This document shows, in pieces, positions 390-3,458 of a stretch of DNA of 32,000 nt. The notes below the pieces were generated by a model. It searched no databases. It was not told where the DNA came from and saw only the letters and a list, made by a program, of their open reading frames with translations. The position numbers and the translations under genes were made by a program. Position 1 is the stretch's first letter. Every line of letters starts with the position of its first letter. Source of the stretch: Candidatus Baldrarchaeota archaeon (GTDB taxonomy: Archaea; Asgardarchaeota; Baldrarchaeia; Baldrarchaeales; DXJG01); assembly GCA_019056805.1 (NCBI GenBank), contig DXJG01000009.1, positions 207,454 to 239,453 on the forward strand. Reading direction: 5' to 3'.

Positions 390-1578
390 ATGACACAAAA
401 AACAACAGTTTCAATAATAAAGGCAGACATAGGTTCACTAGCAGGACACCATGTAGTACATCCAGAACTAATTGAACTTGCCAAAAAGGAACTCGAACAC
501 GCCAAAAAAGAAGGAATCATAAAAGACTACTACGTATTTAACTGTGGAGACGACCTACAACTACTAATGACGCACGACAAAGGAGAAGGAAATTCACAAG
601 TCCACGAACTTGCATGGAACACATTCAAAAAAGCAGCAGAAAAAGCAAGAGAAATGAAACTCTACGGCGCAGGGCAAGACTTACTAAAAGAAGCATTCTC
701 AGGAAACATACGAGGCATGGGACCAGGAGTAGCAGAACTAGAATTCGAAGAAAGAAAATCAGACCCAATCCTAGTATTCGCAGCAGATAAAACAGAACCA
801 GGAGCATTCAACCTACCACTATTCAAAGTATTCGCAGACCCCTTCAACACCCCAGGACTCGTAATAGACCCAAACATGCACGGACCAGACCTAGAACACA
901 CAGGATTCAAATTCAAAATACTTGACGTAATAGAAGGAAGAAGCGTAGTCTTAAAAGCACCAGAAGAAATCTACGACATTCTCGCATTAATAGGTACAAC
1001 AGGGCACTATGTAATCGAAAAAATATGGAGATACGACGATCTACCAGCAGCATCAGTATCCATAACAAGACTAAGCTTGATAGCAGGAAAATATGTGGGC
1101 AAACTAGCAGCTATAATGGCTGCTAGGCCTAAAGATGACCCAGTTGCTATCGTACGTGCGCAACACGGTCTTCCAGCCGTAGGCGAAGTACTCGAAGCTT
1201 TTTCATTTCCACACGCCGTCGCAGGTTGGATGCGTGGTAGCCACTACGGGCCCCTAATGCCTGTAGGATTAAAAGATGCTCGATGCACCAGATTCGACGG
1301 CCCCCCAAGAATCGTATGTCTAGGATTCCAAGTATGCAATGGCCATCTAATTGGTCCTTCAGATATGTTTGACGATCCAGCATTTGACAGAACCAGAATG
1401 CTTGCCAACGAAATTGCCGAATATTTCAGAAGACATGGACTCTTCATGCCCCACAGACTCGGTCCAGATGGGAGAAGAACAATAACAGAATTAAACATGT
1501 TCTTCTCCCAGGACTCACGAAATGGAATATACAACGCTACCTCAGGTGCTAGAGAAACTCAGAGAACGATTCAAGTAA
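390..1578 (+). CDS. fbp: Bifunctional fructose-1,6-bisphosphate aldolase/phosphatase (class V FBPase), interrupted by two introns: join(390..1102,1133..1467,1517..1578), 369 aa spliced
   Basis: Family motifs KADIGS, GDD, YGAGQDLL, DKTEPGAFN, GWMRGSH and RFDGPP are present. The raw 404-aa ORF has a 10-aa insert in YVGK/DDP and an aberrant C-terminus. The conserved tail EMEYTTLPQVLEKLRERFK* lies in another frame (1519-1578). Removing both introns gives 1110 nt = 370 codons. SD GGAGAGGAG lies upstream. Confidence 0.95.
1103..1132 (+). other. Putative BHB-type mRNA intron 1 (30 nt, in frame)
   Basis: Central helix GGGC(1097-1100)/GCCT(1127-1130), bulges AAA(1101-1103) and AAA(1131-1133), intron stem CTAGCAGC(1104-1111)/GCTGCTAG(1119-1126). 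Excision restores GGC AAA GAT GAC (G-K-D-D). The exon-side helix is weak, so this is a relaxed BHB. Confidence 0.88.
1468..1516 (+). other. Putative BHB-type mRNA intron 2 (49 nt, frameshifting)
   Basis: Exon helix TCG(1459-1461)/CGA(1518-1520), central helix GTCC(1462-1465)/GGAC(1511-1514), bulges AGA(1466-1468) and TCA(1515-1517), perfect 13-bp stem TGGGAGAAGAACA(1469-1481)/TGTTCTTCTCCCA(1498-1510). Cutting after the 2nd nt of each bulge yields CCA GAC GAA ATG GAA TAT (P-D-E-M-E-Y). Confidence 0.93.
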
Positions 1579-1582
1579 ACCA

Positions 1583-1668: not shown

Positions 1669-2730
1669 CTAAAAAATAGCATCGATGAGATTTAAAATAA
1701 ATGTAGGAGGAACAGTGAGATAAAAATAATTTTCGTTAAATACCGATTTAAATAAAATCTCTGATTCTAATAGTTCTTCTACACATTCATTAAGCATATA
1801 TTTTGCTATTTCGTCCCTTATTTCATCGCATAATAAATAATACAAATCTCTTAATTCTTTAAAAGATAAGTATGCCTTTTTAGGTCTTCTTGAGAGATGC
1901 AACGCCATTTTTTCCAGTAAAAGAACGCTTTGCATGTTCATATTTCTTAAAGCTTCCAATATCACAAGATCATCATTTAATATCCAAAGTAAGTCATGAG
2001 AACATTTTCTAACGTCTTCAACGGTTATTTCCATTCCAGAAGCCGCAAACGGATAAAGCCTTCTTAATATTTCAATAGATACACTCGGTCTATTAATGTC
2101 AAACTCGCAAACTAAATCCGTAATGTACCTAATCACATCTATATCAATTTCTATAGGAAACGCTAACTTTACACGTTGCAAAGTTATATCAAAAAGCTGA
2201 CGAGGCGTATAGATTCCAAGTTTCAAAATGAAATCTAAACGATTTTCTAAATTAGAGAAACTTTTTCTTGAAAGAGTTCCGGCATCAGCTGATGCTAAAA
2301 CAATTATATTCCTTTTTTTACTCTCTCTTAAAACTTTACGAAATAAACTGGAATACAGATCAACATCATCTAGCACTAATACTAGGAAAAGATCCTTATA
2401 CTTCTCATTACTTATACATTCAACTTCGTTTCCAATGAAAGAAAACTTTCTTCCACCTATAATATTATTTAAAAATTTCTTATTTTCAGAATCATGCATA
2501 TTGACAAAAACTTTAGGGAATCCATAAGCATCCTTTATTTTCTCCCCTAAATAGTTCACGAAAGCGGTTTTACCTATACCATTAATACCAGTAACCACAA
2601 TGTGCAAGGGGTATTGATGGCTTATTCCATCTTCTACGAATGTTTCTGCTACTTTGAGTTCCTTTTCCCTATGTAATAATTCTGGTGGGATAAAGAAAGG
2701 GTCAAAAATTGCAGCTGGGCCGATATTCAA
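1669..2730 (-). CDS. Divergent Cdc6/Orc1-family AAA+ ATPase
   Basis: N-terminal FDPFFIPPELLHREKEL, Walker A GINGIGKT, Walker B LVLDDVD, C-terminal winged-helix-like region. TTG start with GGTGA SD. Confidence 0.75.
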   Translation of the reverse strand: MNIGPAAIFDPFFIPPELLHREKELKVAETFVEDGISHQYPLHIVVTGINGIGKTAFVNYLGEKIKDAYGFPKVFVNMHDSENKKFLNNIIGGRKFSFIGNEVECISNEKYKDLFLVLVLDDVDLYSSLFRKVLRESKKRNIIVLASADAGTLSRKSFSNLENRLDFILKLGIYTPRQLFDITLQRVKLAFPIEIDIDVIRYITDLVCEFDINRPSVSIEILRRLYPFAASGMEITVEDVRKCSHDLLWILNDDLVILEALRNMNMQSVLLLEKMALHLSRRPKKAYLSFKELRDLYYLLCDEIRDEIAKYMLNECVEELLESEILFKSVFNENYFYLTVPPTFILNLIDAIF

Positions 2731-2873: not shown

Positions 2874-3458
2874 ATGCAAAACTTGATGAATGAGCCCACA
2901 GATGAAAAATTAAAACAAATATCGAAAATGTTAGATGAATTAGAAAGAAAAACAACCTTGGAGGCAATAGCTCTCGTTTCCAAAAGCGGTTTACGTGTAG
3001 CTTGTGCAACAAGTACAGTGGTAGATGCCGACTTATTTTCAGCTTCGGCAGCAGCCTTGATAAATATCGGAGAGAAAACAACACGAGAATTAGGACATGG
3101 AAACCTAAATGATGTAATATTAAGAGGTGAAAATGGTTTTACGATAGTTACAGAGGTAAATCCACAAATGATGCTCGTTGCTAGCTGTAAAGAAACACAT
3201 AAACTAGGGTACTATATGGCGTTACTCAAAAACTATACAAGACGTATAGCTCAAGCTCTTGAACTTCCCTCTATTGAAGAAAAGATCCCACAAGTCCTGG
3301 AAAAACCTTATGTTGAAGAACATCCTACTCCGCCAGCACCACCAAAACCATTAGAAACAAAGACTCCAGAACCAGAGGTTTTAGAAACAGAACCTGAAGA
3401 GAGAGATGAAGAAGAGGAAGCACTACTAGAGGCTCTAAGAGCACTAGAAGAGGAATAA
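2874..3458 (+). CDS. Roadblock/LC7 (MglB-like) domain protein with Pro/Glu-rich C-terminal tail
   Basis: ALVSKSGL...DADLFSASAAALINIGEKTTRELGHG..NDVILRGENGFTIV matches the roadblock pattern, followed by a low-complexity tail ending EEEEALLEALRALEEE. Confidence 0.8.
   Translation: MQNLMNEPTDEKLKQISKMLDELERKTTLEAIALVSKSGLRVACATSTVVDADLFSASAAALINIGEKTTRELGHGNLNDVILRGENGFTIVTEVNPQMMLVASCKETHKLGYYMALLKNYTRRIAQALELPSIEEKIPQVLEKPYVEEHPTPPAPPKPLETKTPEPEVLETEPEERDEEEEALLEALRALEEE

What the first reader, a model, noticed from the sequence alone, without database searches (positions are those of the whole stretch)
1459..1520. Frameshifting 49-nt canonical BHB intron in the fbp 3' end
Seen: a perfect 13-bp inverted repeat with a 16-nt loop, flanked by GTCC/GGAC, AGA/TCA bulges and a 3-bp exon helix. 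Unspliced, the frame shifts into an unrelated tail (GRRTITELNMFF...) that runs through the T-rich terminator. Spliced, it gives HRLGPDEMEYTTLPQVLEKLRERFK*, the family C-terminus. From memory of FBP aldolase/phosphatase structures, the EMEY tyrosine contacts substrate. Splicing is therefore likely obligatory.
Basis: partly seen in the sequence, partly recalled or inferred. Interest (0 to 1): 0.92.

Follow-up and report, generated by a model that had tools for sequence, protein, structure and literature searches.

The report
Two tRNA-type introns in archaeal fbp
The only gene for a key sugar-building enzyme in this uncultured Asgard archaeon is interrupted by two tiny hairpin inserts with the shape cut by the tRNA-splicing enzyme, so its mRNA very probably has to be cut and rejoined first, which published work documents in archaea for essentially one other gene.

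Summary
Window 1459-1520 folds as a canonical helix-bulge-helix-bulge-helix. Removing 1468-1516 (49 nt) restores the family C-terminus.

Comparative evidence is strong. Seven copies from the same Baldrarchaeia-like genus carry six versions of the insert at the same site (34, 37 or 49 nt, all 1 mod 3). Every one splices to ...HRLGPDEMEYTTLPQVLEKL.... In the 57-nt 3' exon, 15 of 20 variable columns are third codon positions of the spliced frame. About 170 other fbp genes are uninterrupted there.

The genome encodes a heteromeric (alpha plus beta-like) splicing endonuclease and RtcB.

I also found a second, in-frame 30-nt BHB-like insert (1103-1132). It sits in the codon aligned to Lys232 of the S. 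tokodaii enzyme. It is present in three close variants and precisely absent from four.

My genome scan also recovered BHB inserts in infB and rpoN.

No RNA data were available, so excision itself is inferred.

Published work reports such mRNA introns only for crenarchaeal cbf5. This scan's own unchecked notes record similar mini-introns in many Asgard genomes, and both fbp inserts on this same window.

Verdict: a real new member of a known kind. Confidence is about 0.87 for the 49-nt intron.

The parts
390..1102 (+). fbp exon 1 (FBP aldolase/phosphatase, PF01950); ends with GGC AA of the Gly-Lys codons
   Evidence: Pfam E 8e-164; alignment to 3r1m_A; BHB cut rule
1096..1136 (+). BHB-like motif A: central helix GGGC 1097-1100 / GCCU 1127-1130 (one G.U), 5' bulge AAA 1101-1103, stem 1104-1111 / 1119-1126 (8 bp, extendable to 10), 3' AAA 1131-1133; the outer helix is only a single U.G pair, so the 3' side is relaxed
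   Evidence: Fold -27.0 kcal/mol, z -3.3; consensus fold of 3 variants
1103..1132 (+). Intron A, 30 nt, in-frame, no stop; unspliced it would add KLAAIMAARP inside G-K|DDP, at the codon aligned to Lys232 of ST0318
   Evidence: Exact 10-aa gap against 3r1m_A; excision gives GKYVGKDDP; present in G000, L114 and L118, precisely absent in L115, L116, L129/L030 and L027; identical in contigs of 4 runs from 4 studies
1133..1467 (+). fbp exon 2; ends with G of the split Asp codon G|AC
1459..1520 (+). Canonical hBHBh' motif B (outer 3-bp helix, 3-nt bulges AGA and UCA, 4-bp central helix, 13-bp intron stem, 16-nt loop)
   Evidence: consensus structure over 7 sequences
1468..1516 (+). Intron B, 49 nt, frameshifting (1 mod 3)
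   Evidence: also recovered blind by the genome-wide scan as C17:208921-208969
1517..1578 (+). fbp exon 3: AC of the Asp codon plus EMEYTTLPQVLEKLRERFK and stop TAA 1576-1578; the spliced product is 369 aa
   Evidence: 15 of 20 variable columns at codon position 3 of this frame; 18 of 24 columns vary after the stop

Best explanation
The single fbp gene of this Baldrarchaeia-like Asgard archaeon is transcribed as a pre-mRNA carrying two endonuclease-type (bulge-helix-bulge) introns. The heteromeric tRNA-splicing endonuclease EndA recognises each BHB and cuts after the second nucleotide of each 3-nt bulge. RtcB joins the exons, and the introns are probably released as small circles. Removing the 49-nt intron B (1468-1516) corrects a frameshift and attaches the conserved 20-residue C-terminus, so it is needed for a family-typical enzyme. 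Removing the 30-nt intron A (1103-1132) restores the invariant G-K-D-D-P motif. Shown here: the structures, the exact restoration, site-specific conservation or absence in relatives, coding selection on the spliced frame, and the presence of the enzymes. Inferred: the cleavage and ligation themselves, and that intron A is spliced and not translated. Intron B predates the genus. Intron A looks like a recent gain inside it.
For: Geometry and fold statistics. The Pfam and PDB alignments break exactly at both inserts. Seven genus copies hold six intron-B versions of 34, 37 or 49 nt, all 1 mod 3, and all give HRLGPDEMEYTTLPQVLEKL after canonical cutting. In the 3' exon 15 of 20 variable columns are at codon position 3 of the spliced frame; the unspliced frame gives 7 different peptides, 2 with early stops. 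About 7 of 36 BHB-core columns vary (my reading of the alignment), against 61 of 100 third positions in the adjacent 300 nt of exon. In the census, 172 fbp loci pass the in-frame C-terminus test and only the genus copies fail it; two of the 172, L011 and L016, carry their own insert further downstream. Intron A shows presence or absence at exact BHB boundaries; in L118 the 3' bulge is AGA, which unspliced would put Arg before DDP. fbp is single-copy. One EndA paralogue resembles PDB chains 3p1z_B and 3ajv_B, which I recall as the crenarchaeal Aeropyrum pernix enzyme; a second paralogue, 31% identical, has Val where the first has the DHAPFLV histidine. RtcB is present. 12 of 18 detectable tRNAs have introns. 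The same motif splits infB and rpoN in this genome. The DNA is real in independent assemblies.
Against: There is no RNA-level evidence. There are no double compensatory changes in any helix: the sequences are close, and within the consensus helices the changes are four one-sided changes to G.U plus A.C mismatches in three variants at the two loop-proximal pairs. BHB-like shapes are not enriched genome-wide over shuffles, so shape alone proves little. Intron A has an almost absent outer helix and is in-frame without a stop, so read-through translation cannot be excluded. The clade of intron-A carriers has weak support (UFBoot 65).
Confidence: 0.87

Rival explanations
1. Intron A only: the 30-nt palindromic insert is not spliced but translated as a tolerated 10-residue loop insertion next to the lysine of the GKDDP motif.
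For: It is in-frame with no stop. The 3' bulge is closed by only a single U.G pair. All three variants keep exactly 30 nt.
Against: The insert lies inside the invariant G-K-D-D-P motif, which is uninterrupted in all other loci. Loop residues change radically (IM, AL, KK) while the stem is kept. In L118 the residue before DDP would become Arg. The boundaries coincide with BHB cut sites. The heteromeric EndA type is the one reported to accept relaxed motifs (PMC5829648 abstract). In-frame cbf5 introns of 33-39 bp in a catalytic codon are a precedent (PMC2738675).
Confidence: 0.2
2. The tail is reached by recoding: a programmed +1 frameshift, or translational bypass of the hairpin as in phage T4 gene 60 (that system is described from my own knowledge).
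For: A strong hairpin at the frame change; insert lengths held at 1 mod 3 would also be required by recoding.
Against: A frameshift would leave 11-16 extra, non-conserved residues where the other homologues checked have none. There is no stop after a take-off codon: the unspliced frame stays open for 45 codons. By my reading of the sequence, no matching take-off and landing codons reproduce G-P-D-E-M-E-Y; landing in frame at CAC would add a residue. Recoding does not explain the conserved 4-bp helix and the two 3-nt bulges. It also does not explain the same geometry at an in-frame stop in infB.
Confidence: 0.04
3. fbp is a decaying or truncated gene: the hairpin is a selfish palindromic insertion and the enzyme is made with an aberrant C-terminus or not at all.
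For: The unspliced ORF is open for 404 aa, so a gene caller working on the raw DNA would report it that way.
Against: The 3' exon shows purifying selection in the spliced frame. The unspliced tail is not conserved and is truncated in two variants. The gene is single-copy and otherwise intact at E 8e-164. The insert persists across up to about 13% exon divergence with its BHB core kept.
Confidence: 0.04
4. Assembly or sequencing artefact.
For: The source is a metagenome-assembled genome.
Against: Intron A is identical in contigs of 4 runs from 4 studies. Intron B is identical in a further run of the source study. Variants of both occur in independent metagenome and MAG assemblies.
Confidence: 0.01

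Closest known systems
cbf5 pre-mRNA intron of Crenarchaeota (Watanabe 2002; Yoshinari 2006; Yokobori 2009, PMC2738675)
   Same: A short BHB intron inside a protein-coding sequence. The cbf5 introns are 16-44 bp, some are in-frame (33, 36, 39 bp), they sit in the codon of a catalytic residue, they are gained and lost among relatives, and they are linked to a hetero-oligomeric splicing endonuclease. Here the introns are 30 and 34-49 nt, one is in-frame at the codon aligned to Lys232, one shows gain or loss within the genus, and there is an alpha/beta EndA pair.
   Different: A different gene (central carbon metabolism, not RNA modification). A different phylum (Asgard, not Crenarchaeota). Two introns in one mRNA. 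No experimental proof here, whereas cbf5 splicing is reported as demonstrated (PMC2738675 abstract). Not homologous insertions.
Non-canonical and multiple tRNA introns of Asgard archaea (PMC11291895; bioRxiv 10.64898/2026.10.13.758758)
   Same: The same motif, the same presumed enzymes, the same phylum, and the same pattern of repeated recent gains. The preprint reports two EndA paralogues consistent with an (alpha-beta)2 enzyme in 44 of 60 genomes.
   Different: In the passages I searched, those papers deal with tRNA genes and do not report introns in protein-coding genes. Here half of each motif is built from coding exon sequence.
BHB element in the 5' UTR of Haloferax volcanii HVO_1309 mRNA (PMC7714728)
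   Same: An mRNA processed by the splicing endonuclease at BHB sites, shown in vivo and in vitro.
   Different: It lies in the untranslated leader, not in the coding sequence, and no reading frame depends on it.
IRE1/RtcB splicing of HAC1 and XBP1 mRNA in eukaryotes (own knowledge; mentioned in PMC13149111 and PMC8718801)
   Same: Spliceosome-independent removal of a small frameshifting intron from a 3' coding region, which changes the C-terminus; RtcB-type ligation in metazoa.
   Different: A different endonuclease and recognition motif, and regulated by stress. There is no evidence of regulation here.

Membership tests
Archaeal BHB (endonuclease-spliced) intron | [quoted passage not shown] | tested here: met
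   Intron B: GUCC/GGAC with bulges AGA and UCA, kept in all 7 sequences. Intron A: GGGC/GCCU with AAA and AAA, but the 3' bulge is poorly closed.
Archaeal BHB (endonuclease-spliced) intron | Flanking helices h (exon-exon) and h' (intron) | tested here: met
   Intron B: outer 3 bp (4 bp in L114 and L118), inner 9-13 bp. Intron A: inner 8-10 bp, outer only a single U.G, so it is a relaxed type.
Archaeal BHB (endonuclease-spliced) intron | Cutting at the symmetric bulge positions yields the exact mature product | tested here: met
   Both excisions restore the family sequence without gain or loss of a residue.
Archaeal BHB (endonuclease-spliced) intron | The host encodes the splicing endonuclease and an RtcB-type ligase | tested here: met
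   Two PF01974 paralogues, one keeping the histidine and one with Val at that position, plus one PF01139 gene.
Archaeal BHB (endonuclease-spliced) intron | Insert present or absent at exact boundaries among orthologues | tested here: met
   Intron B only in the genus; intron A only in 3 of 7 genus copies; other loci uninterrupted at both sites.
Archaeal BHB (endonuclease-spliced) intron | Helices supported by compensatory substitutions | tested here: inconclusive
   No double changes. Four one-sided changes to G.U keep pairing, and three variants have A.C mismatches at the two loop-proximal pairs. Divergence is too low.
Archaeal BHB (endonuclease-spliced) intron | Excision observed in RNA (spliced junction, circular intron) | not testable with these tools
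   No RNA run was listed.
cbf5 intron lineage of Crenarchaeota | Located in the cbf5 gene of Desulfurococcales or Sulfolobales | tested here: not met
   The host gene is fbp and the organism is an Asgard archaeon. It works like that intron but is not a member of its lineage.
Translational bypass (T4 gene 60 type) | Matched take-off and landing codons, with a stop directly after the take-off codon | tested here: not met
   The unspliced frame is open for 45 codons beyond the junction. By direct reading of the sequence, no codon pair gives GPDEMEY.
Programmed +1 ribosomal frameshift | All insert codons are translated and the shift occurs at a defined slippery or hungry site | tested here: not met
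   The insert peptides differ in length and sequence among 6 versions. The homologues checked have no residues here.

The most novel reading that the evidence does not exclude
fbp is one visible case of an ongoing invasion of protein-coding genes by endonuclease-type introns in Asgard archaea. In this lineage, central-metabolism and information-processing genes (fbp twice, infB, rpoN, with leads for pyrG, atpD and pcm) depend obligatorily on the tRNA-splicing machinery. New coding-region introns are still being gained: intron A arose within the genus, and a separate 73-nt insert sits five codons away in Freyarchaeia-like genomes. That would be a prokaryotic, spliceosome-independent counterpart of intron-bearing genes in the closest relatives of eukaryotes.
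Probability: 0.55. Interest if true: 0.88.

Novelty: new member of a known kind. Interest (0 to 1): 0.72.

Why it matters
Published work through 2025-26 still cites only cbf5 in Crenarchaeota, plus one 5'-UTR case in Haloferax, for endonuclease-dependent mRNA processing in archaea.

This case differs in several ways:
- A single-copy central-metabolism gene carries two such introns.
- One intron is frameshifting and one sits in the codon aligned to Lys232, inside the invariant GKDDP motif.
- The organism belongs to the phylum closest to eukaryotes.
- There is natural presence/absence variation.

It shows that mRNA splicing by EndA and RtcB is not a crenarchaeal oddity. It gives a clean substrate for in vitro and metatranscriptomic tests. 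It also has a practical consequence: gene callers working on the raw DNA will report this fbp with a wrong 404-aa product, and will truncate genes such as infB and rpoN in the same genome.

Tried and rejected
1. RNA evidence: no RNA holder was listed in either look-up, so no reads could be laid for expression or junctions.
2. DNA contigs of X3-X5 cover only up to about 1357-1388 of the window, so they say nothing about intron B. Only X2 spans it.
3. A genome-wide BHB scan allowing G.U pairs everywhere was non-discriminating (2981 real, 2593 shuffled).
4. An 'excision joins two long ORFs' filter mostly returned junctions of adjacent genes and missed fbp because exon 3 is only 20 codons. I dropped it as a detector.
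5. A strict scan showed no overall enrichment (114 real, 117 shuffled). Only the tail with stems of 10 bp or more was enriched (10 against 2).
6. An apparent 54-nt hit in a thioredoxin-reductase-like gene (C17:193661-193714) was judged a chance hairpin in true coding sequence.
7. The PDLEHT 6-aa insertion (885-902) is a lineage-specific coding indel shared with the order-level relative, not an intron.
8. Neither intron has another copy in the genome, so they are not a recently amplified repeat.
9. Literature searches for the roles of Lys232 and Tyr348 found nothing relevant. Those roles remain recalled knowledge.
10. Rfam and ARAGORN on three other long-stem BHB hits gave nothing at those positions.
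11. The exon tree has low support everywhere.

Full report
WHAT IS THERE. The window lies in a 1.92-Mb, 18-contig genome. Its congeners are deposited as Candidatus Baldrarchaeota and Candidatus Odinarchaeota MAGs, and its phylum-level relatives include Atabeyarchaeia, Hodarchaeota and Thorarchaeota. It is therefore an Asgard archaeon of a Baldrarchaeia-like genus. The runs that hold the sequence are subsurface and marine metagenomes. The ORF at 390-1604 is an FBP aldolase/phosphatase (PF01950, E 8e-164), but the match stops at profile position 342 of 361. Against the solved S. tokodaii enzyme (3r1m_A) the alignment ends at GPD|GR. It also contains one gap of exactly 10 residues, at KLAAIMAARP.

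THE OBSERVATION.
- outer helix 1459-1461 / 1518-1520
- central helix GUCC 1462-1465 / GGAC 1511-1514
- bulges AGA 1466-1468 and UCA 1515-1517
- a perfect 13-bp stem and a 16-nt loop
The fold is -28.4 kcal/mol, z = -5.3, and 0 of 200 shuffles fold as well. Cutting after the second nucleotide of each bulge removes 1468-1516 (49 nt). The result reads ...HRLGPDEMEYTTLPQVLEKLRERFK*, with the stop at 1576-1578. Unspliced, the frame runs to 1604 through an unrelated tail.

SHAPE ALONE IS NOT ENOUGH. A strict genome-wide scan required a 4-bp central helix with at most one G.U, 3-nt bulges, a Watson-Crick inner stem of at least 7 bp, and an outer helix of at least 2 bp. It found 114 motifs in the genome and 117 in a dinucleotide shuffle. 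Only stems of 10 bp or more were in excess (10 against 2). The case therefore rests on position and comparison, not on the fold.

COMPARATIVE EVIDENCE FOR INTRON B. Among 29 Asgard fbp genes, only the same-genus copies stop at profile position 342. I collected seven genus copies: G000, two species-representative genomes and four metagenome contigs. All carry an insert at the identical site, with the same GUCC / AGA / GGAC core. The distal stems and loops differ. There are six distinct versions of 34, 37 or 49 nt, all 1 mod 3. Canonical cutting gives HRLGPDEMEYTTLPQVLEKL(R/K)(E/S/T)RFK* in every one.

The consensus fold is a textbook hBHBh'. There are no double compensatory changes. Four one-sided changes to G.U keep pairing. 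The only breaks are A.C mismatches in three variants at the two loop-proximal pairs. About 7 of 36 core columns vary (my reading of the alignment), against 61 of 100 third codon positions in the adjacent 300 nt of exon.

The frame test is decisive. In the 57 nt of exon 3, 15 of 20 variable columns are third positions of the spliced frame. That frame gives three near-identical peptides. The unspliced frame gives seven different peptides, two with early stops. After the spliced-frame stop, 18 of 24 columns vary.

In a census of about 182 fbp loci from Archaea and some Bacteria, only the genus copies fail the in-frame C-terminus test. fbp is single-copy in this genome.

A SECOND INTRON. I noticed this, before consulting earlier notes. 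The 10-residue insert coincides with a second hairpin (fold, z = -3.3):
- central helix GGGC 1097-1100 / GCCU 1127-1130
- 5' bulge AAA 1101-1103
- stem 1104-1111 / 1119-1126
- 3' AAA 1131-1133
The BHB cut rule removes 1103-1132 (30 nt, in-frame, no stop) and restores G-K-D-D-P. By the alignment the split codon is that of Lys232 of ST0318. From memory of the 2011 structure papers this is the Schiff-base lysine; I did not verify that here. GKDDP is present in every homologue printed.

The insert is present in G000, L114 and L118. It is precisely absent from L115, L116, L129/L030 and L027, whose flanks are otherwise the same. Among the carriers the stem is kept while the loop changes, so the unspliced peptide would read IM, AL or KK there. 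In L118 the 3' bulge is AGA, which unspliced would place Arg before DDP.

The carriers group together on an exon-only tree, nested among intron-less copies, and the outgroup also lacks the insert. That fits one recent gain, but support is weak (UFBoot 65, 7 informative sites). Contigs of four runs from four studies carry intron A letter for letter.

The 3' side of this motif is relaxed, because its outer helix is a single U.G pair. I therefore rate splicing of intron A lower, at about 0.75.

MACHINERY. The genome has two PF01974 endonuclease genes.
- One is closest to PDB chains 3p1z_B and 3ajv_B, which I recall as the crenarchaeal Aeropyrum pernix enzyme, and it keeps the DHAPFLV histidine.
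- The other is 31% identical and has Val at that position, so it looks like a non-catalytic beta-type subunit.
This is the layout of the heteromeric (alpha-beta)2 enzyme. That type is reported to cut non-canonical introns (PMC5829648 abstract) and has been linked to archaeal pre-mRNA splicing (Yoshinari 2006, cited in PMC12397907). One RtcB gene is present. ARAGORN finds only 18 tRNAs, 12 of them with introns. This fits the heavy interruption of tRNA genes reported for Asgard archaea (PMC11291895; bioRxiv 10.64898/2026.10.13.758758).

GENOME CONTEXT. The long-stem tail of my scan recovered fbp intron B blind. It also recovered two more coding-gene inserts.
- infB: a 33-nt insert at C10:39163-39195 puts an in-frame stop into the unspliced RNA. 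It splits one GTP_EFTU domain, with profile positions 4-27 before it and 68-185 after it.
- rpoN: a 41-nt insert at C10:32511-32551 follows MIIPVR. The downstream exon matches RNA_pol_N positions 7-58 of 58.
Neither fbp intron has another copy in the genome. In a different Asgard family (L011 and L016, probably Freyarchaeia-like), fbp carries a separate 73-nt insert after MEYT, five codons downstream of site B. It has a relaxed BHB, with central helix AUAC/GUAG (3 of 4 pairs) and bulges ACA and AAC/AAU. It also restores MEYTTLPGVLKKL.

MECHANISM. The best-supported reading is as follows. EndA cuts both BHBs of the pre-mRNA. RtcB ligates the three exons into a 369-codon mRNA. Intron B must be removed to obtain the conserved C-terminus, and intron A very probably as well.
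- Shown: the anatomy, exact restoration, conservation and absence patterns, selection on the spliced frame, and the enzymes.
- Inferred: the chemistry itself, and any circular intron products.
I see no evidence for a regulatory role. Tolerated insertions into a lineage with a permissive endonuclease are the simplest account.

RIVALS.
- Recoding (+1 frameshift or bypass) would leave non-conserved extra residues or an extra residue. It lacks take-off and landing features. It also does not explain the conserved bulges and 4-bp helix.
- A decaying gene is contradicted by the codon-position pattern.
- An artefact is excluded by independent assemblies.
- Read-through of intron A remains a live alternative, at about 0.2.

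COMPARISON AND NOVELTY. The closest known system is the cbf5 pre-mRNA intron of Crenarchaeota. Those introns are 16-44 bp, some are in-frame, they sit in a catalytic codon, and they are gained and lost among relatives (PMC2738675). As of 2020 this was called the only additional BHB intron reported in archaea, besides a 5'-UTR element in Haloferax (PMC7714728). Papers from 2025-26 still cite only the cbf5 work. In the passages I searched, the Asgard papers deal with tRNA genes only.

The fbp introns work like the cbf5 intron but are not members of its lineage: the gene and the phylum both differ. I class this as a new member of a known kind.

Within this scan the phenomenon is not new. Earlier unchecked notes record both fbp inserts on this same window. 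They also record inserts in pyrG, atpD, pcm, infB and rpoN of this genome, and similar mini-introns in many Asgard genomes. Of these I re-tested fbp, infB and rpoN myself.

Noticed in passing
L011:2527-2640 and L016:1041-1150 (fbp of a different Asgard family; G039 and G030): A separate 73-nt insert after the MEYT codons, five codons downstream of site B. It has a relaxed BHB (AUAC/GUAG central helix, bulges ACA and AAC/AAU), and excision restores MEYTTLPGVLKKL. This is an independent intron in the same short 3' region of fbp.
   Followed up: partly
G000 contig C10:39163-39195 (L194:264-296): A 33-nt canonical BHB insert with an in-frame stop inside the GTPase domain of infB (aIF5B). Pfam GTP_EFTU positions 4-27 lie before it and 68-185 after it.
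   Followed up: yes
G000 contig C10:32511-32551 (L195:112-152): A 41-nt BHB insert after MIIPVR of rpoN. The downstream exon matches RNA_pol_N positions 7-58 of 58.
   Followed up: yes
G000 C5:1042-1071; C8:26960-26990; C18:35013-35101 (minus strand): Three more long-stem (9-11 bp) BHB motifs with no Rfam or ARAGORN match at those positions and no obvious reading frame. They may be introns in heavily interrupted tRNA genes or in other RNAs.
   Followed up: partly
whole genome G000: ARAGORN finds only 18 tRNA genes in 1.92 Mb, 12 of them with introns. Most tRNA genes are probably hidden by multiple or non-canonical introns.
   Followed up: no
window 1669-2730 (-) and 2874-3458 (+): The neighbours of fbp are a divergent AAA ATPase (weak, below-cutoff AAA_16 and ATPase_2 matches) and a Roadblock/LC7 protein with a Pro/Glu-rich C-terminal tail.
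   Followed up: no
window 390-1580: G+C content rises from about 0.37-0.41 in the 5' part of fbp to 0.51-0.53 around 1090-1290, then falls again. Unexplained.
   Followed up: no
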